From contig JBHLMN010000002.1 of NCBI GenBank assembly GCA_048938105.1, forward strand, positions 64,001 to 128,000: DNA of 64,000 nucleotides, read 5' to 3'. This document shows positions 1,152 through 40,665 of this stretch, one piece after another. This DNA is from Promethearchaeota archaeon (GTDB lineage Archaea; Asgardarchaeota; Heimdallarchaeia; Hodarchaeales; Hodarchaeaceae). The stretch's first letter is position 1. Every line of letters starts with the position of its first letter. The notes beneath the pieces were generated by a model that had not been told where the DNA came from, made no database searches, and saw nothing but the letters and a program-made list of their open reading frames with translations. Both the position numbers and the translations under genes were made by a program.

Positions 1152-3806
1152 TTAATTGATGTTAGTTATTCGGGCTCCAAGTTGACATATTGTCTCCTTG
1201 ATTGTTGTGTTAATTATAGTTCTTGGGATTTTTTTCTCGCTCTTGACATCTATTTTAATTTCCAAAGAAATCTCAGCTTTTTTTGATTCTAAGGGAACTA
1301 TAACTCCCCGATAAAAAGCAGGGAGATATTTTGATTCAAGATCCTTTACCTCCACAGATAATGAATAGACCTCCTGAGGTTTAATCCAGATTTTAGAAGG
1401 TGTTTTGAATATTAATTCAGAAGGAGTAGTAGTTCCAAGGTCTTTTGGAATAATTACTTCCTGAATTTCAGGATTATTAGCTATTTGACTTGCAATTGTT
1501 TTTGCAATTTCCTTCCCAAGGAGAATTTCATTTGATGCAAATATGATCTGTATTGGGGCAAGCTCAACTGAAAAAAAGAATGTATTCGGTTGGATCTTGT
1601 TACCACTTATTATTGCTCTCCCAAAGGCTCCTTCTTTGACTCCCCAACAAATAGCTTGTTGAATTACCTCTGATGATGTAATTTTAGGTAAATTAGGATT
1701 AATTAAGAATTGTTCAAGAAGTAATTGCGTCGAAATACGTTGGCCAGAGGTAAAAAATTCTTCTAATAGCTTTCGATAGTGGAGAGTAGAAACAATGAAT
1801 TCACGTGTAACCAATTCACGATGATACCATTTTGTAAGAGGTTCATAATTGAGCGTAGGAAGTCCTAGCGAAATCGTTCTTCTTCCATCGTTAAGAATCG
1901 AATAAGTTTTTCTAACGCTATAAGATATTGAATCCATAATTCTAACTTGTCGCTGTCTAATCTCTGAACTGAAATCATGTGTTTTTGAGTAAAATTTTTT
2001 TTCTAATTCATTTAAAGCAAGTTTTGTTTGCACAAGATTTTGTAAGTCCGTGAGATGAGAGTCATTTGGTATAGCATAAACGATTGTGTTTTTATATCGA
2101 CGGAAAGTCCTCCCTTTATTTTCTAGCCAGTCTTCCAATGATTTTTTAGGAGTTGCTGGATGTATTAATACGATCTTTAGCTTTTGATTGTCAGGAATTT
2201 CATTTGAAGAATTTGGCCATATAATTGTTTTAAATTCTTTACCAACGTGCTTTATAATTTCCTTTTTCATTTCTTCTTCGAAACCCTCTTGAAATAAGTC
2301 TTTAATATCTTGAATTTTGCGATTTAGATTTGGTTCATGGCTGAAATAATAACGTCCATCTTCAAAATGCAAGTGATTGAGATTTCTAAGGAGATGATGA
2401 AGAATCTCAGAGATCAACGAGATATGAATGTGTGGATTCAAGACATTCAATTTAAGTTCAGAAAGAGCTAATCCTACTGGTTTTTCTTCAAGTGTGAATG
2501 AATTTAAAAAAATGGTTTGAGAAATCCCCAAGGCTAGATTATGCCATTCTGGGTACTTTTTATCTAGAAAATTAGCTTTAGAACCTGACCCAACTATATC
2601 TGAATAAATAATTGATTCAAATTGACCATTAATATGCTGTAAAAAATCATTTCTTAGAAAAGGCTCTTGAAGATTCACATTCATTGGGAGAATGAGGTCC
2701 AATTTCTCTTTGGAAGACCATAAGCTAGAAAGTGTGCGTGATAATATTCGTAGAATAGCTCTTGTACCCTGAAATGATGGAAAACTTCCCCACTTATCGT
2801 AAAGTACATCAATGAGTTCCGGATGGAAGGGGTATGAGTCTTTCATTCGTATAATAAAATTGGGCTCTAGGATCTTTTCAGGAAGGTTTTTTCGTTGTTT
2901 CTGATACATTTGCAAATATTTTAAGACAACTTCCTCAAGATTTTTATCTAGAAGCACTTTTTCAATTAACCTTTTTGTTACTAAAGGGTATATTTCTTCC
3001 TGCTCAATTGGTGTCTCAATTGTTTCCACACGTCCTAGGATATGGTTCAAACGATTTAATGTATCTAAAGATGTCTCTGAATGGTCCTCATATTTGTGAG
3101 ATGGAAGTGTTATTATTAATAAACCTCGCGATAACGAATTTATTGCTTCAGTTAATTCTTGAAAGAACAACAAGGATTGAATTCCTAAATTAGATTCGTT
3201 TACTGATATTCCTTGAGCTTTAACAATATATTCTGCAATTTCATCAATGAGAAGTAGAAAAGGTTCATGTTTTGAAAGAAAATTTCTTAGTTTGTCCTTT
3301 CCAGGACTTATACAGTTGATATCATTGTCTGAGAATTCTTTATACCCTTCAATTCCTGCTATCTGGTACGCAATGTCACCCCAAAGTGTGTGGATACATA
3401 TATCATGTTCTTTTCGCCCCTCTAAAGGATTTAAATTCGTTCCTATAAGTGTAACGACTTTAGTTTTTAAAGGCGGGAGATTTTTTGGCAGATACTCTTG
3501 AATTACAGTTCCATTTGTGGCATAATGATAAATAGCGATCAATGCATGAGTTTTCCCCCCTCCAAATGGCGTTTGTAGTTTAATTACTCCAGTGCCTTCT
3601 TCATTACAGAGTTTCATCTGAACAGATTGAAGAAGGTTAAGTAATCCTCTAGTTAGAAAGGTTTTTTGAAAGAATTTTAGAGGATTAGAGTAATCTATAG
3701 ATGCTGATCCTAGTATAATGTTACTAAGATCAGCAACAAAAAAATCTTTTATTTGACCAGATTGAATCATTTTATGAGGAACAACAATATCATACCATGG
3801 TTTCAT
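1152..3806 (-). CDS. DUF499-family AAA+/P-loop ATPase
   Basis: Starts MKPWY..VVPH; Walker A LQTPFGGGKTH; TLWGDIAYQ; Walker B LLIDE; SYPFHPEL; FQGTRAILR. Confidence 0.88.
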   Translation of the reverse strand: MKPWYDIVVPHKMIQSGQIKDFFVADLSNIILGSASIDYSNPLKFFQKTFLTRGLLNLLQSVQMKLCNEEGTGVIKLQTPFGGGKTHALIAIYHYATNGTVIQEYLPKNLPPLKTKVVTLIGTNLNPLEGRKEHDICIHTLWGDIAYQIAGIEGYKEFSDNDINCISPGKDKLRNFLSKHEPFLLLIDEIAEYIVKAQGISVNESNLGIQSLLFFQELTEAINSLSRGLLIITLPSHKYEDHSETSLDTLNRLNHILGRVETIETPIEQEEIYPLVTKRLIEKVLLDKNLEEVVLKYLQMYQKQRKNLPEKILEPNFIIRMKDSYPFHPELIDVLYDKWGSFPSFQGTRAILRILSRTLSSLWSSKEKLDLILPMNVNLQEPFLRNDFLQHINGQFESIIYSDIVGSGSKANFLDKKYPEWHNLALGISQTIFLNSFTLEEKPVGLALSELKLNVLNPHIHISLISEILHHLLRNLNHLHFEDGRYYFSHEPNLNRKIQDIKDLFQEGFEEEMKKEIIKHVGKEFKTIIWPNSSNEIPDNQKLKIVLIHPATPKKSLEDWLENKGRTFRRYKNTIVYAIPNDSHLTDLQNLVQTKLALNELEKKFYSKTHDFSSEIRQRQVRIMDSISYSVRKTYSILNDGRRTISLGLPTLNYEPLTKWYHRELVTREFIVSTLHYRKLLEEFFTSGQRISTQLLLEQFLINPNLPKITSSEVIQQAICWGVKEGAFGRAIISGNKIQPNTFFFSVELAPIQIIFASNEILLGKEIAKTIASQIANNPEIQEVIIPKDLGTTTPSELIFKTPSKIWIKPQEVYSLSVEVKDLESKYLPAFYRGVIVPLESKKAEISLEIKIDVKSEKKIPRTIINTTIKETICQLGARITNIN

Positions 3807-36776: not shown

Positions 36777-37634
36777 ATGGTTCAACACTCAATTCCTTGG
36801 GTGCTTTTTATAGCTCAAAATCTAAAAGATTTTTGTGAACTAGAGTTATATAAGATGACAAGTCAAAAGAAAGTACAAAAATCACAAAAGAATATTTTAT
36901 CTTTTGGTAGAGATATACGGAGCCAACAATTGGCGTTTTTTTCTAAAGCTCTAGTTGAATGGTTTGTACAGAACGGTCGTGATTTACCTTGGCGCCGTAC
37001 TCGAGATCCTTACAAAATCCTTGTAAGTGAAATCATGCTTCAACAGACTAATGTAGAAATTGTCATTCCAATATACAAAAGATTCTTGCATAAGTTCCAA
37101 ACTATTCAAGATTTAGCTCATTCTCCTCTCAAAGAGATTAAAGAAATCACTGATCAATTAGGATACAAACGAAGAGGTGAATACTTGCATGAGATTGCTA
37201 AGCAAATTACAGTTGAAAGAAATGGACAGTTTCCAAGTAACTTGGATGACCTTTTAACCCTCAAAGGTATTGGCCGCTATACTGCAGGCGCAATTCTTAG
37301 TTTTGCTTTTGAGAAGGAGGATAGAACTGCTGCGATTGTTGATGTAAATGTAGAACGTGTCCTGGGCCGTATTTTTGGTTTATGGAAGTGGGAAAAGAAT
37401 GCAACGTTTGAGAAAGAGATTTGGAAGCTTTCTGAACTAATTATTTCCAAAGGGAATGTTTGGTCAATTAATCAGGGCATTTTAGATCTGGGGGCAATGA
37501 TTTGCACAGCACAGAAGCCAAAATGTTCGTTATGCCCAATGACTGAGATATGTGAATATTACAAAATTGAGGTACCGAAGATAGTTCCACTGGATTCATT
37601 TTTTCCTATTGATCATCAGGAAAAAAACCAATAA
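36777..37634 (+). CDS. mutY: A/G-specific adenine glycosylase, short MutY-type (HhH-GPD, [4Fe-4S])
   Basis: RDLPWRRTRDPYKILVSEIMLQQT, LKGIGRYTA, VDVNVERV and C-x6-C-x2-C-x5-C. No C-terminal Nudix-like domain. The start may be ATG 36856. Confidence 0.85.
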   Translation: MVQHSIPWVLFIAQNLKDFCELELYKMTSQKKVQKSQKNILSFGRDIRSQQLAFFSKALVEWFVQNGRDLPWRRTRDPYKILVSEIMLQQTNVEIVIPIYKRFLHKFQTIQDLAHSPLKEIKEITDQLGYKRRGEYLHEIAKQITVERNGQFPSNLDDLLTLKGIGRYTAGAILSFAFEKEDRTAAIVDVNVERVLGRIFGLWKWEKNATFEKEIWKLSELIISKGNVWSINQGILDLGAMICTAQKPKCSLCPMTEICEYYKIEVPKIVPLDSFFPIDHQEKNQ

Positions 37635-37789
37635 AGAGAAAAATACCTTTTTCTAAATTGTCAGTATAATTATGAGGAGATGTTAAATTTAATAAATTTT
37701 CATAGTCAAATAATCACCTCAGATTTATTTAACCCTGTAAATGAAAACGTTTTTAAGAAAAAATCGGAGAATAAATCATTAGAACCTAT

Positions 37790-38045
37790 GACTAAGACGG
37801 GTCTAGTCCCAACGGGTGCAAAACCTCGCTTTTCGCATTCGTCCCATTAATGGGAAATGGTCAGGCAAGCAAATAATTTTGGTCTAGACATCCCAACCGA
37901 ATCATTGCAAGTCATGATTGAAAAAGGAGACATATTAACACGCACTCCTGAAAAGTTATCTGGCAGATGGACAGGATAGAGGGCATAGGGTTATGCCCCA
38001 TATGATGGAGGCTAGCATCGGTAACGAGCTAGTTGATGACCTCAT
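37790..38045 (+). ncRNA. Candidate structured non-coding RNA or long leader RNA of unknown family
   Basis: About 45% GC by hand count, against ~24% in the preceding 150 nt. No long ORF, at least six hairpins, one capped by a GNRA (GTAA) loop. Confidence 0.55.
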
Positions 38046-38055
38046 GTGAACACAA

Positions 38056-40665
38056 ATGACTCCATTTGATAGCGTTTGTGATAACCTAATGAAATCAACT
38101 GATCTGTTATCAATTGAGAAAATTCAACCACAATTATTTGTGGATTTTTCTCAAAGTTCTAGCACTTTAGTGGAAACTCATATACATAACCAGCTCATCA
38201 ACCAGCTTCCCCTTCAGGAAAGGATTTCTGCGGTTTTAGATGAGATTTCGTGGAATGAATGGCAAACTAAATTAGTTCAACTAGTTAAACCATTATCTAA
38301 AATATTAATTACTCTCCTTTATGATAAAATTCTACTCACATTGAAGAAGTTAGAAAATACACCAGAGTTAAACTCATTTCTAGAAAAAATCTCTTTATTA
38401 GCCCAGTCTGCATTGGAAGATTCTACGAAATTGAGTGAAGCTCGTAATCAATTTATCAATCAATTGGAAGATATTTGGAAATTAGCGAATAATTCTGAAC
38501 CTAAAACGCCTATTTTGGATTACGAGGGATTTTCTCTAAATAAACTCCTTACTTTCATATTTATGGATTGGGATTTTTGCCTGGAAATCATTGATCTAAT
38601 TCATAAAATTAACAGGGATATTAAAGGGGGAACCCAGCTATTATTACCATATATATTTGAAATAGGAATCCCAGAGCAACAAAAACAGCTGCAAGGGCAA
38701 GTTTTCACTCCATCACCTGTTGTAGATTTCATCTGTAAACAGAATTTGACAGACAAAACCACCAGAATTATCGATCCCGCATGTGGGACAGGATTATTTC
38801 TTTTAGGTGCTTTAAAAGTTCTAGTTGATTCCAAAACGATCCAATGCAATCAGATTGAGCTTATTGGCATTGAAATAGACCCTGTTTTAGCAGATATTGC
38901 AGATAGTGCAATCAATTACTTTCTTTTAATAAACCCAATCTCCATGATTGATTGGCAGGTTTATCGTACTGATTTTTTCAATTGTGACTCATCAACGTTG
39001 AGATTTTCAGTTAAAAACTCTGGAATGACTACATTATTAATGAATCCTCCCTATACTCGCCATGAAATGCTCACAACAGAATATAAAAAGTTCTTAAAAG
39101 AAAAAATGGAGTTTGATCTCCTAAAAATCAGGCAATCCCCCCCCTATAACAGAAGCTCATTCTCAGGAAGATCAGGTTTATACACTTATTTTTTAGTACA
39201 TGCTACTAGCCTCTTGAAAGAGGATGATAATGTAGGACTAATTATTCCTAATTCTTGGTTAGATGTAGATTACGGCCAACACCTCCAACAATTCGTTTTA
39301 AAAAATTATTTAATTGAATCAATCATTAATTGTAGATTAAAAAAAGTCATTCCAACCGCAGATGTGAACACAGCTATCCTGAAGCTTAAACGTAAGAAAA
39401 TGGATGCATATCATGAAAATAATAACCTAGTTAAATTTGTTTCAATTAACAATGTAAGAGACCTCGACCTACTGGTTAATAAAGAAGTTTCTCAGATCAA
39501 AAGTTCCTCATCAAGGATTCAAGTAGTTTCTGTGAAACAAAAAGCGCTTTTCTCGAAATCTAAATGGGGAATATATTTTCGTGCTCCACTAGACTACTTC
39601 AAATTATTAGAAAGACTTGATAAAAAACTAGTAATGTTGGGTGAAATAGCCCACGTCCGAAGGGGGTTTACAAGCGGAGCGAATGACTTTTTTTATGTTG
39701 GAAAACCAGGTGAGTCTAATACATTCTTTATATCGAATTGGGATTCAGAAACTGGCGATTTAATGTTATCTCTAAAAGCTGAGTTAGTAGTCAATCGATT
39801 TAAAGCCCAAGGATTTCAGCCAAGTGAACCGATGTTCGTCATTGAAAAAGATTATTGGATGCATCGTGTTAATGCTGGGCAAGAGGAATATACATGGGAA
39901 TATTCTTTTAGAGAAAGTGATGGGTTTATTTGGGTTCCCAATTACTTAGTCAAATCCCCTCGTAGTCTTACAAGATATGAGATTCATGAAAAAGACCTAA
40001 AATATGTTGTTATTTTAATACCTCCTCATTCTTCAATTAATCAACTAAAGACAGGTATTAAGAAATACATTCGTTGGGGAGAAGAATGGATTCCTTCTGC
40101 AGGGAATAAATTCCACCAAAGGCCTACATGTAGTTCACGGAAAAACTGGTATAGCTTACCTTCAAATGAATATGAATCCTATAACATTCTTTGTCTCATG
40201 ACTATAAATGACCGATTTCCATTTTTCTATAATCCACGTGATTTTTATTTTGATGCTCGTTTATATGGTATCCAATTTATTAAAGGCAAATTTCAACAGA
40301 ATAACCTCTTATTTGCAAGTTATTTCTTGTATCTTAATTCTATTCTTACCACTTTACAATTAGAACTTTTGGGACGTAGTAATTTGGGTGAAGGCGGATT
40401 AGATATCAAAGTTTATGAATATGAGTTGCTTAAAATACCTAACTACGATTTTTTAGTCAAAACTTGCTCAAAAGATACAAATTGTGTCTTTTCACAGCTT
40501 TTGGATTATTCTCCGTACTCTATTCTCCAAGGAACTCCAAAAACAATAAAGCTTATTACTGATGATCACGCCATTTACTTGTTTTCACTTTCACAGACAT
40601 TAATTAATAGTTTATCTAACGAATTAAAGAATCTAGTACAAATGCGTATTGAAAAAGCTAAATAA
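38056..40665 (+). CDS. N6-adenine-type DNA methyltransferase (gamma class, Eco57I/type IIG-like MTase+TRD)
   Basis: GQVFTP, motif I IDPACGTG, motif IV MNPPY, and a long C-terminal TRD. Confidence 0.88.
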   Translation: MTPFDSVCDNLMKSTDLLSIEKIQPQLFVDFSQSSSTLVETHIHNQLINQLPLQERISAVLDEISWNEWQTKLVQLVKPLSKILITLLYDKILLTLKKLENTPELNSFLEKISLLAQSALEDSTKLSEARNQFINQLEDIWKLANNSEPKTPILDYEGFSLNKLLTFIFMDWDFCLEIIDLIHKINRDIKGGTQLLLPYIFEIGIPEQQKQLQGQVFTPSPVVDFICKQNLTDKTTRIIDPACGTGLFLLGALKVLVDSKTIQCNQIELIGIEIDPVLADIADSAINYFLLINPISMIDWQVYRTDFFNCDSSTLRFSVKNSGMTTLLMNPPYTRHEMLTTEYKKFLKEKMEFDLLKIRQSPPYNRSSFSGRSGLYTYFLVHATSLLKEDDNVGLIIPNSWLDVDYGQHLQQFVLKNYLIESIINCRLKKVIPTADVNTAILKLKRKKMDAYHENNNLVKFVSINNVRDLDLLVNKEVSQIKSSSSRIQVVSVKQKALFSKSKWGIYFRAPLDYFKLLERLDKKLVMLGEIAHVRRGFTSGANDFFYVGKPGESNTFFISNWDSETGDLMLSLKAELVVNRFKAQGFQPSEPMFVIEKDYWMHRVNAGQEEYTWEYSFRESDGFIWVPNYLVKSPRSLTRYEIHEKDLKYVVILIPPHSSINQLKTGIKKYIRWGEEWIPSAGNKFHQRPTCSSRKNWYSLPSNEYESYNILCLMTINDRFPFFYNPRDFYFDARLYGIQFIKGKFQQNNLLFASYFLYLNSILTTLQLELLGRSNLGEGGLDIKVYEYELLKIPNYDFLVKTCSKDTNCVFSQLLDYSPYSILQGTPKTIKLITDDHAIYLFSLSQTLINSLSNELKNLVQMRIEKAK

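What the first reader, a model, noticed from the sequence alone, without database searches (positions are those of the whole stretch)
37790..38045. Unannotated ~255-nt GC-rich structured RNA directly upstream of the methyltransferase genes
Seen: GC rises from ~24% to ~45% (hand count) with no long ORF. Hairpins are GACT-A-AGA/TCT-AGTC (37790-37808), ACGGGTGCAAAA/TTTT-C-GCATTCGT (37812-37842, whose G-U pairs favour the + strand), TCCCA/TGGGA (37842-37855), AATCAT/ATGATT (37900-37919), AGGAG/CTCCT (37925-37949), GGGCATA/TATGCCC (37981-37998) and GAGG-CTAGC-TCG[GTAA]CGA-GCTAG..CCTC (38008-38043, GNRA loop). There is an imperfect direct repeat GGTCTAG..TCCCAAC at 37800 and 37881, and a TATA-like TTTTTAAG at ~37750. 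The element ends ~12 nt before the first MTase ATG. It lacks tRNA, SRP, RNase P and group II domain V hallmarks. Inference: a novel ncRNA or cis-regulatory leader, possibly a component or regulator of the nuclease-less methyltransferase pair.
Basis: partly seen in the sequence, partly recalled or inferred. Interest (0 to 1): 0.78.

Follow-up and report, generated by a model that had tools for sequence, protein, structure and literature searches.

The report
Gene-less TnpB transposon carrying guide RNA
The "structured RNA" in front of the methyltransferase genes is real, but it is the body of a 420-base mobile element with no protein gene that carries the guide-RNA module of TnpB transposons and landed there by chance, so it is not a regulator belonging to the methyltransferases.

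Summary
Window 37668-38087 is a discrete 420-bp insertion. The orthologous endonuclease-III/methyltransferase loci of two related Hodarchaeota genomes are contiguous across this point and lack it.

Eight to nine further full-length copies (76-88% identical) lie in unrelated contexts: elsewhere in this genome, in two other genomes of the genus and on two metagenome contigs. None is next to a methyltransferase.

Its 3' ~160 nt match the last codons of 402-aa TnpB genes plus the right end of their insertion sequences, which is where the omega (guide) RNA scaffold lies. This part is now non-coding, yet compensatory base changes preserve its helices: 15 of 34 pairs across 21 copies.

Upstream lie a conserved TATA-like box and a 145-nt structured domain. 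This domain occurs only in such gene-less elements of this one genus and also shows covariation.

This is a PATE-like non-autonomous IS607/IS605-family element: a known kind, here with an extra RNA domain of unknown role. The annotated methyltransferase ATG (38056) lies inside the element, and the native start is 38089. Two earlier follow-ups of this scan reached the same reading on the paralogous copy.

The parts
37665..37667 (+). TAT immediately 5' of the element. It is the conserved target motif and the candidate transposon-adjacent motif (TAM).
   Evidence: TAT precedes the left end in all 9 full-length copies (8 independent insertions) while the sequence further left is unrelated. TAT is also present in the uninterrupted orthologous site of G003.
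37668..38087 (+). The whole 420-bp gene-less mobile element (PATE-like, IS607/IS605 family). Its position is ambiguous by up to 3 nt because TAAT occurs at both junctions.
   Evidence: Empty sites: window 36821-37670 and 38087-38500 are contiguous in G003:C18 and G020:C6. Similarity to the paralogue at G000:C52 is confined to 37682-38087. Full-length copies at 80-88% identity occur in G012 (four) and G005 (one), and two more at 76-83% lie on metagenome contigs.
37668..37775 (+). AT-rich left-end region. It contains a TGATAACCT-like motif (37709-37719 in this copy) that echoes the right-end terminus.
   Evidence: Alignment A1. The consensus has ..AAATGATAACCTCAG.. here and ..TTTGTGATAACCT at the right end. 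No similarity to the left ends of TnpB-encoding copies was detected.
37750..37758 (+). TATA-like box TTTTTAAGA, with a purine-rich BRE-like stretch just upstream. It is the putative archaeal promoter of the element's RNA.
   Evidence: Invariant in 9 of 9 copies within an otherwise variable stretch. A TATA-like box sits at the same distance (about 25 nt) before the structured domain in the divergent G020 copies. Promoter function is inferred, not shown.
37776..37922 (+). The 5' structured RNA domain (~145 nt), specific to the gene-less elements. Its role is unknown.
   Evidence: RNAalifold consensus and pair counts on A1 and A4. On A4, 11 of 39 pairs show changes on both sides, against 3.0 +/- 1.4 in shuffles and 1-3 in slid controls. 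Covariance model R1 finds it only in these elements, in 4 of the 21 genomes of the genus (G000 included) and in none of 61 other genomes of the class. There is no protein-level similarity to anything else in the genome.
37930..38087 (+). Omega-RNA (reRNA) scaffold module, homologous to the 3' end of tnpB plus the transposon right end. Helices: 37946-37950/37972-37976, 37981-37987/37992-37998, 38011-38020/38025-38033 (GTAA loop) and 38051-38062/38070-38080. The terminus is GATAACCT (38080-38087).
   Evidence: 77-94% identical to the tnpB tails and right ends of about 10 loci in this genome and many in the genus. On the 21-sequence alignment A2, 15 of 34 pairs show compensatory changes.
37970..38032 (+). 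Decayed remnant of the last 20 codons of TnpB (DRIEGIGLCPI*WRLASVTS*), with an in-frame TGA at 38003-38005.
   Evidence: tblastn of the six intact 402-406-aa TnpB proteins of this genome gives 65-74% identity, E about 1e-5. The proteins are TnpB by Pfam: PF01385 at 6.5e-25 and PF07282 at 9.3e-13.
38056..38058 (+). ATG listed as the start of the 869-aa methyltransferase ORF. It lies inside the element, in frame, and adds 11 element-derived codons.
   Evidence: The same ATG is conserved in all copies of the element, whatever lies downstream.
38088..38107 (+). Flank directly 3' of the right end. It is the predicted guide portion of a read-out omega RNA and contains the native methyltransferase start, ATG 38089-38091.
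   Evidence: Orthologues in G003, G020 and G012 align from residue 1-2 of the protein that starts at 38089. In G003 the sequence TATAATGAG.. runs uninterrupted across this point. The guide role is inferred from the known TnpB mechanism.

Best explanation
The region is the RNA-coding body of a 420-bp protein-less transposable element (window 37668-38087). The element derives from, or is parasitic on, TnpB-carrying insertion sequences of the IS607/IS200-IS605 group.

Anatomy:
- an AT-rich left end;
- a conserved TATA-like promoter box;
- a 145-nt structured 5' RNA domain found only in these mini-elements;
- a ~160-nt omega-RNA scaffold that ends exactly at the transposon's right end.

Proposed working. 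Everything in this section is inferred from the established TnpB mechanism. What is shown is the anatomy, the homology, the insertion polymorphism and the conserved structure.
- The element's own promoter transcribes a ~310-nt RNA that reads out across the right end, so its 3' tail is the flanking DNA sequence and serves as the guide.
- TnpB proteins made by full-length elements elsewhere in the genome bind the scaffold in trans.
- Whenever a transposase excises the element, TnpB cuts the resealed empty site (TAT followed by the guide-matching flank). Recombination with a sister copy then restores the element.
- A TnpA supplied in trans mobilises it, most likely an IS607-type serine recombinase, because this genome has no Y1 transposase.

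Its position 1 nt before the native methyltransferase start codon is an accident of insertion. A side effect is that the gene is now separated from its former upstream region. It must be transcribed through or from the element, and it has gained an in-frame upstream ATG.
For: - Insertion polymorphism: clean empty sites exist in two related genomes.
- Copy number: 8-9 further full-length copies have unrelated flanks.
- Homology: the 3' part matches tnpB tails and right ends, and the terminus ..ATAACCT is identical. The partner ORFs are TnpB by Pfam, and this genome has 23 TNB-domain hits.
- Closest autonomous relative: the most similar right end belongs to an element with a serine-recombinase TnpA plus TnpB in G013. 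G000 has an IS607-type TnpA at C52:248947-249474 and no Y1 TnpA.
- Conserved structure after loss of coding: 15 of 34 pairs show compensatory changes in the omega module. The whole-element structure has 10 pairs with double changes against 4.2 +/- 1.4 in shuffles. The 5' domain has 11 of 39. G-U pairs are specific to the + strand.
- Promoter: the TATA-like box is invariant and keeps its position in a divergent subfamily that has a different left end.
- Literature: gene-less PATE-like IS605 elements 'often encode omega RNAs' that TnpB must act on in trans (PMC10055086). PATEs are defined in PMC3119063. IS607 elements lack inverted repeats and target duplications (10.1101/2023.11.20.567912).
Against: - No expression data exist. 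The promoter, the transcript ends and the guide are all inferred.
- The element's left end shows no detectable similarity to the left ends of the TnpB-encoding copies examined, so which transposase moves it is open.
- The resident intact TnpB elements are only 77-85% identical in the scaffold. Their left flanks do not obviously end in TAT, so compatibility of TAM and scaffold with resident TnpBs is unproven.
- The two copies in this genome are only 80% identical, which argues against recent bursts of activity.
- The 5' domain has no assigned role.
- The single-sequence fold energy is unremarkable.
- The copies are close relatives, which inflates covariation statistics. Alignment A4 was fitted to the model.
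Confidence: 0.85

Rival explanations
1. Inert relic. The element is a dead, decaying fragment of a transposon with no present RNA function. The apparent structure is inherited from the ancestral omega RNA and from the transposon-end DNA hairpins.
For: - The TnpB tail is broken by a stop codon.
- The copies within this genome are old: 80% identity.
- One metagenome copy (L037) has lost 23 nt of the scaffold, and the G020:C64 copy is heavily decayed.
- The fold energy is unremarkable.
Against: - Compensatory double changes occur among the gene-less copies themselves, for example GGGCATA/TATGCCC, GGATGTA/TACATCC and GGGTATA/TATACCC.
- The promoter-like box and the 5' domain are the best-conserved parts. 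Both are retained in a divergent subfamily with a different left end.
- G-U pairs point to RNA on the + strand rather than to duplex or bottom-strand DNA.
Confidence: 0.12
2. One reading: a cis-regulatory leader or dedicated ncRNA partner of the nuclease-less methyltransferase pair, for example one that senses SAM or SAH.
For: It lies directly upstream of, and co-oriented with, the two methyltransferase genes. After insertion it must form part of, or replace, their 5' untranslated region.
Against: - Orthologous methyltransferase genes in G003, G020, G012 and G011 have no such element upstream.
- None of the other copies is next to a methyltransferase.
- There is no riboswitch or other Rfam match.
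- The unit is bounded by transposon ends.
Confidence: 0.02
3. A miniature IStron-like self-splicing element. The 5' structured domain together with the 3' module would form a compact intron that removes the element from host transcripts.
For: - The architecture (structured RNA at the 5' side, omega RNA at the 3' end) recalls IS607/IS605 IStrons (10.1101/2023.11.20.567912).
- The flanking base before the left end is always U, as at group I 5' splice sites.
Against: - No group I or group II intron match appears even at E <= 10 with relaxed filters.
- The element ends in ..AACCT in all 21 copies, with no terminal G.
- It does not start with GUGYG.
- The 145-nt domain is too small for a group I core.
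- All insertions are intergenic, so splicing would not be needed.
Confidence: 0.01

Closest known systems
PATEs (palindrome-associated transposable elements) and PATE-like gene-less IS200/IS605 elements that encode omega RNAs (Haloquadratum, PMC3119063; Geobacillus, PMC10055086)
   Same: - Too short to encode a protein.
- No terminal inverted repeats and no consistent target duplication.
- A right end with a subterminal hairpin shared with TnpB (IS1341-type) elements.
- Includes a disrupted remnant of the TnpB C-terminal coding region, like HqIRS71.
- Multi-copy, with presence/absence polymorphism between relatives.
- Carries the omega-RNA scaffold.
   Different: - Found in an Asgard (Hodarchaeota) genus.
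- The closest autonomous relative is IS607-type (serine recombinase), not IS605-type.
- The left end is not recognisably shared with the TnpB-encoding copies.
- It carries an additional conserved 145-nt structured RNA domain and an apparent own promoter, which the PATE descriptions I read do not mention.
TnpB omega RNA / reRNA, and the earlier 'sotRNAs' of archaeal IS1341-type tnpB genes (PMC8612924; PMC4615843)
   Same: - The 3' ~160 nt are homologous to the tnpB 3' end plus the right end of resident TnpB elements.
- The module ends exactly at the transposon boundary.
- It has covariation-supported helices.
   Different: It is not embedded in a tnpB gene. The coding frame is broken, and the 5' portion is replaced by an unrelated structured domain. 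Binding and guide function are untested.
IStrons (IS605/IS607 elements with a 5' group I intron and a 3' omega RNA; 10.1101/2023.11.20.567912)
   Same: A mobile element combining a structured RNA at its 5' side with an omega RNA at its right end.
   Different: No group I intron signature, no terminal G, no tnpA or tnpB, and much smaller.

Membership tests
PATE-like non-autonomous IS200/IS605-IS607 element | Too short to encode a transposase, with no intact ORF | tested here: met
   The element is 420 bp. Every frame has stops in this copy, and in the other copies the only candidate frame, the one read through in the alignment, is also closed. tblastx of the left 310 nt finds nothing but the paralogue.
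PATE-like non-autonomous IS200/IS605-IS607 element | Mobile: several copies with unrelated flanks, and empty sites in relatives | tested here: met
   Searches show the copies. Searches show the empty sites in G003 and G020.
PATE-like non-autonomous IS200/IS605-IS607 element | Ends shared with a transposase- or TnpB-encoding IS family | tested here: inconclusive
   The right end is clearly shared. The left end shows no detectable similarity to the left ends of the TnpB or IS607 copies examined.
PATE-like non-autonomous IS200/IS605-IS607 element | No terminal inverted repeats, no target-site duplication, and insertion next to a short conserved motif | tested here: met
   There are no inverted repeats at the ends. 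TAT lies 5' of every copy. The 4-nt TAAT overlap at this copy is not repeated at the other copies.
PATE-like non-autonomous IS200/IS605-IS607 element | Subterminal palindromes or hairpins | tested here: met
   The right-end hairpin, 8 nt from the terminus, has 5 pairs with compensatory changes across 21 copies. The left-end AAATTT..AAATTT palindrome was seen only by eye.
TnpB omega RNA (reRNA) | Derived from the 3' end of tnpB and the right end, terminating at the transposon boundary | tested here: met
TnpB omega RNA (reRNA) | Conserved secondary structure | tested here: met
   15 of 34 pairs are compensatory on A2.
TnpB omega RNA (reRNA) | Transcribed, bound by TnpB, and guides cleavage of a TAM-flanked target | not testable with these tools
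   No transcriptome or biochemistry is available. The role is inferred from the established mechanism (PMC8612924, PMC10055086).
Any Rfam family, including riboswitches, RAGATH-18, HEARO, group I/II introns and C/D sRNAs | Covariance-model match | tested here: not met
   There are no hits at gathering score on the whole window. At E <= 10 on 37500-38300 only chance-level hits appear.
Methyltransferase-linked cis-regulatory leader | Co-occurrence with the orthologous or paralogous methyltransferase genes | tested here: not met
   Orthologous loci lack it. No methyltransferase lies near any other copy.

The most novel reading that the evidence does not exclude
The conserved unit 'own promoter + 145-nt 5' domain + omega scaffold' is a self-contained mobile guide-RNA gene, with the 5' domain as a functional innovation. 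The domain could, for example, protect or process the 5' end in the absence of a tnpB mRNA, recruit TnpB or the transposase in trans, or bind an archaeal RNA-binding protein such as L7Ae. On this reading the element is an RNA-only hyper-parasite of TnpB transposons in the archaeal lineage closest to eukaryotes.
Probability: 0.25. Interest if true: 0.6.

Novelty: new variant of a known kind. Interest (0 to 1): 0.35.

Why it matters
- It removes a false lead. There is no dedicated RNA partner of the methyltransferase cluster.
- It corrects the methyltransferase gene model. The native start is 38089, and the 11 N-terminal codons from 38056 are transposon-derived.
- It documents that gene-less, guide-RNA-carrying derivatives of TnpB transposons exist and have moved within Hodarchaeota. 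This fits the view that omega RNAs and TnpB are modular and can act in trans.
- The extra 5' RNA domain, conserved across two subfamilies with different left ends, is the one part that known descriptions do not explain. It could be informative about how stand-alone guide RNAs are made and stabilised in archaea.

Tried and rejected
- Rfam at gathering score and at relaxed thresholds, and ARAGORN: nothing.
- Single-sequence folding on both strands: not significantly stable.
- Decayed-CDS reading for the left and middle part. Six-frame translation and tblastx against the whole genome found no protein-level similarity. The 20-codon micro-ORF at 37788 changes mostly non-synonymously between copies and is closed by a stop in every copy. 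Only the last 20 codons of TnpB are recognisable.
- Exact 19-mer scans of public genome and metagenome collections. Besides true copies they returned three hits (L034, L036, L038) that share only about 22 nt. I judged these to be chance.
- Search for the element's left end in the left ends of TnpB or IS607 copies: no similarity. An attempt to read a common TAM from the left flanks of the six intact TnpB elements was inconclusive, because they carry heterogeneous and partly nested left regions.
- Co-orientation with the downstream gene (8 of 11 insertions) is not significant.
- The long-range helix 37776-37781/38034-38039 predicted by RNAalifold is not kept in the G020 subfamily. Its 3' strand (TGATGA) is equally invariant in tnpB-linked copies, so I do not rely on it.
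- The K-turn idea (UGAUGA with CUGA) was considered by eye only. It conflicts with the covarying TCCTG/CAGGA helix.

Full report
**Observation**

The stretch is real and stands out in composition. GC is 0.22-0.29 in 37600-37799 and 0.40-0.48 in 37800-38049. No ORF of 60 aa or more lies there, and all six frames carry stops. Rfam finds nothing at gathering score in the whole window and only chance-level hits at E <= 10 in 37500-38300. ARAGORN finds no tRNA. On its own the sequence does not fold better than shuffled versions: z = -1.03 on the + strand and -0.62 on the - strand. The hand-drawn hairpins alone therefore prove nothing.

**It is a repeat with sharp ends**

A search of the window's own genome (G000; the window is C6:64001-128000) found one ~80% identical full-length paralogue at C52:80559-80963. 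It also found about ten copies of only the 3' ~81-120 nt. Between the window and the C52 locus, similarity is confined to 37682-38087, and the flanking genes are unrelated.

In the genus, full-length copies at 80-88% identity occur four times in G012 and once in G005. Two metagenome contigs carry two more. Exact-motif scans name the organisms as Candidatus Hodarchaeota MAGs.

**It is an insertion**

The methyltransferase downstream has orthologues in most genomes of the genus, and they align from residue 1-2 of the protein that begins at ATG 38089. In G003:C18 and G020:C6, window 36821/36960-37670 and 38087-38500/38409 are directly contiguous, overlapping by 4 nt (TAAT).

Read base by base, G003 has ..GATATAATGAGATCC.. 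where the window has ..GTAT|AATTATGAGG...GATAACCT|AATGAAATC... Taken with the register of the other copies, the element is 37668-38087 (420 bp). Every other copy has TAT, then 14 variable bases, then GTTAAATTT at the left, and ..GATAACCT followed by divergence at the right. The element is therefore inserted just after a TAT.

It follows that the ATG at 38056, listed as the start of the 869-aa ORF, belongs to the element and is conserved in every copy. The native start is 38089, one base past the right end.

**What the 3' half is**

At six loci of this genome the shared 3' segment forms the last ~62 nt of an intact 402-406-aa ORF plus ~56 nt downstream. That ORF is TnpB: PF01385 at 6.5e-25 and the Cas12f1-like TNB domain PF07282 at 9.3e-13. 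Its RuvC motifs (..IDIG....QEES....NADVNGAYNI..) are visible in the translation.

The window reads DRIEGIGLCPI*WRLASVTS* at 37970-38032 against DRIEDVGLHPTRWRLAAVTS* in TnpB. It is thus a decayed TnpB C-terminus followed by the transposon right end, which terminates at ..AATAACCT in all full-length copies. This is exactly where TnpB omega RNAs (reRNAs; the archaeal 'sotRNAs') are encoded (PMC8612924, PMC4615843, PMC10055086).

In a 21-sequence alignment of gene-less and tnpB-linked copies (A2), the RNAalifold consensus has four helices, and 15 of 34 pairs show compensatory double changes. Examples:
- GGGCAU/AUGCCC against GGAUGU/ACAUCC;
- the terminal hairpin ACAAAUG../..CGUUUGU against AAAAUUGA/UCAAUUUU against GUUGAAUAG/CUAUUCAAC.

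Such changes also occur among the gene-less copies themselves. The structure has therefore been kept after the coding function was lost.

**What the 5' half is**

The left ~270 nt occur only in the gene-less elements and have no protein-level similarity to anything else in the genome. They contain an invariant TTTTTAAGA (37750-37758). About 25 nt further on begins a multi-helix domain (37776-37922).

On the nine full-length copies the whole-element consensus has 82 pairs. Ten show changes on both sides, against 4.2 +/- 1.4 in shuffles (0 of 500 as high) and 0-1 in slid controls.

A covariance model of the 5' domain (R1) found four much more divergent copies in G020. It found nothing in 61 other genomes of the class.

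With three of the G020 copies added (A4, fitted to the model), 11 of 39 pairs show double changes, against 3.0 +/- 1.4 in shuffles and 1-3 in slid controls. The TCCCA/TGGGA stem carries a 20-nt insertion that forms its own hairpin.

The G020 elements are also gene-less. They keep a TATA-like box at the same distance, together with the 5' domain and the omega module, but they have a different left end. Promoter, 5' domain and scaffold therefore behave as one conserved unit. G-U pairs throughout favour an RNA of the + strand.

**Who could move and use it**

The right end most like the mini-element's belongs to an element in G013:C54 with a serine-recombinase TnpA (195 aa) followed by TnpB (407 aa). 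This is an IS607-type element. A solo 170-nt tail fragment in G002:C58 is 94% identical.

G000 has no Y1 (IS200-type) transposase by PF01797, at 99% completeness. It has 23 TNB-domain hits, and one IS607-type TnpA+TnpB pair at C52:247701-249474.

IS607 elements lack inverted repeats and target duplications (10.1101/2023.11.20.567912), which is what is seen here. I could not find the mini-element's left end in any TnpB-encoding copy. I also could not read a common TAM from the heterogeneous left flanks of the resident TnpB elements. The identity of the mobilising enzyme and the compatibility with resident TnpBs therefore remain open.

**Relation to the methyltransferases**

There is none beyond the accident of insertion. 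No other copy has a methyltransferase nearby. The C52 copy sits between a helicase gene and an unknown ORF followed by an adenine deaminase gene. Orthologous methyltransferase loci lack the element. All insertions are intergenic, and 8 of 11 are co-oriented with the downstream gene, which is not significant.

As a consequence of the insertion, the gene's former upstream region now lies 420 bp away. Transcription must pass through or start in the element. Whether the element's outward-reading promoter now drives the methyltransferase operon is an inference that transcription-start mapping would settle.

**Comparison with what is known**

Gene-less derivatives of IS605-type elements (PATEs) were defined in Haloquadratum, including one with a disrupted TnpB C-terminal remnant (PMC3119063). 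PATE-like elements that 'often encode omega RNAs' needing TnpB in trans were noted in Geobacillus (PMC10055086). The present element fits that kind.

It differs in three ways:
- its host is an Asgard genus;
- its closest autonomous relative is IS607-type;
- it has an apparent own promoter and a conserved extra 145-nt RNA domain of unknown role.

Two earlier follow-ups of this scan on the C52 paralogue reached the same reading. I arrived at it before looking and re-tested it here.

**Verdict**

It is a new variant of a known kind of mobile element, of moderate interest. The one unexplained part is the 5' domain.

Noticed in passing
window 38056-38091: The gene model of the 869-aa methyltransferase probably starts 33 nt too early. 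ATG 38056 is transposon sequence, and orthologues start at the equivalent of ATG 38089. GTGAT at 38078-38082, in the right end, lies 6 nt before that ATG and resembles a Shine-Dalgarno core.
   Followed up: partly
L007 (G000:C6:190354-193434; outside the window): A frameshifted TnpB (two tblastn pieces, 190707-191591 and 191572-191913) with its right end. A second right-end/omega copy lies 1.5 kb further on (193356-193434), with a 191-aa minus-strand ORF in between. This looks like a broken or nested IS.
   Followed up: no
G000:C52:247701-249474: The only IS607-type pair in this genome: a serine-recombinase TnpA (50% identical to the G013 one) next to a TnpB that is 41% identical to the family studied here. 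The genome has no Y1 transposase.
   Followed up: partly
L026 (G002:C58, reverse strand 3410-3586): A solo ~170-nt TnpB-tail/right-end fragment, 94% identical to the mini-element's omega module. It has neither tnpB nor the 5' domain, and it lies upstream of a CBS-domain gene and 2-oxoacid oxidoreductase-like genes.
   Followed up: partly
L037 (metagenome contig SDBT01012223.1) 3503-3893 and 8378-13473: A copy of the mini-element with a 23-nt deletion in the omega scaffold lies 4.5 kb upstream of an archaeal 16S-23S rRNA operon. That operon could be used to place the host.
   Followed up: no
L003-L008, the TnpB proteins of this family: These 402-aa TnpBs have ..SSKCSFLDNE..EHH..GRR..RGLF.. where most TnpBs have two CxxC pairs. 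The zinc finger of the TNB domain may therefore be degenerate, although PF07282 still matches.
   Followed up: no
G000:C4:141979, C4:29792 and C11:140082 upstream regions: A ~110-nt segment (TTGATTTCTTAGGTGG..TCTGGAACCT..) lies directly before the tnpB start in one copy but about 250 nt upstream in two others. The left regions of these IS copies are therefore composite or nested.
   Followed up: no
window 36777-37634: The upstream gene is an endonuclease III-like HhH-GPD glycosylase with an Fe-S cluster motif (Pfam PF00730, PF00633, PF10576). It is syntenic with the methyltransferase in G003, G020 and G011.
   Followed up: partly
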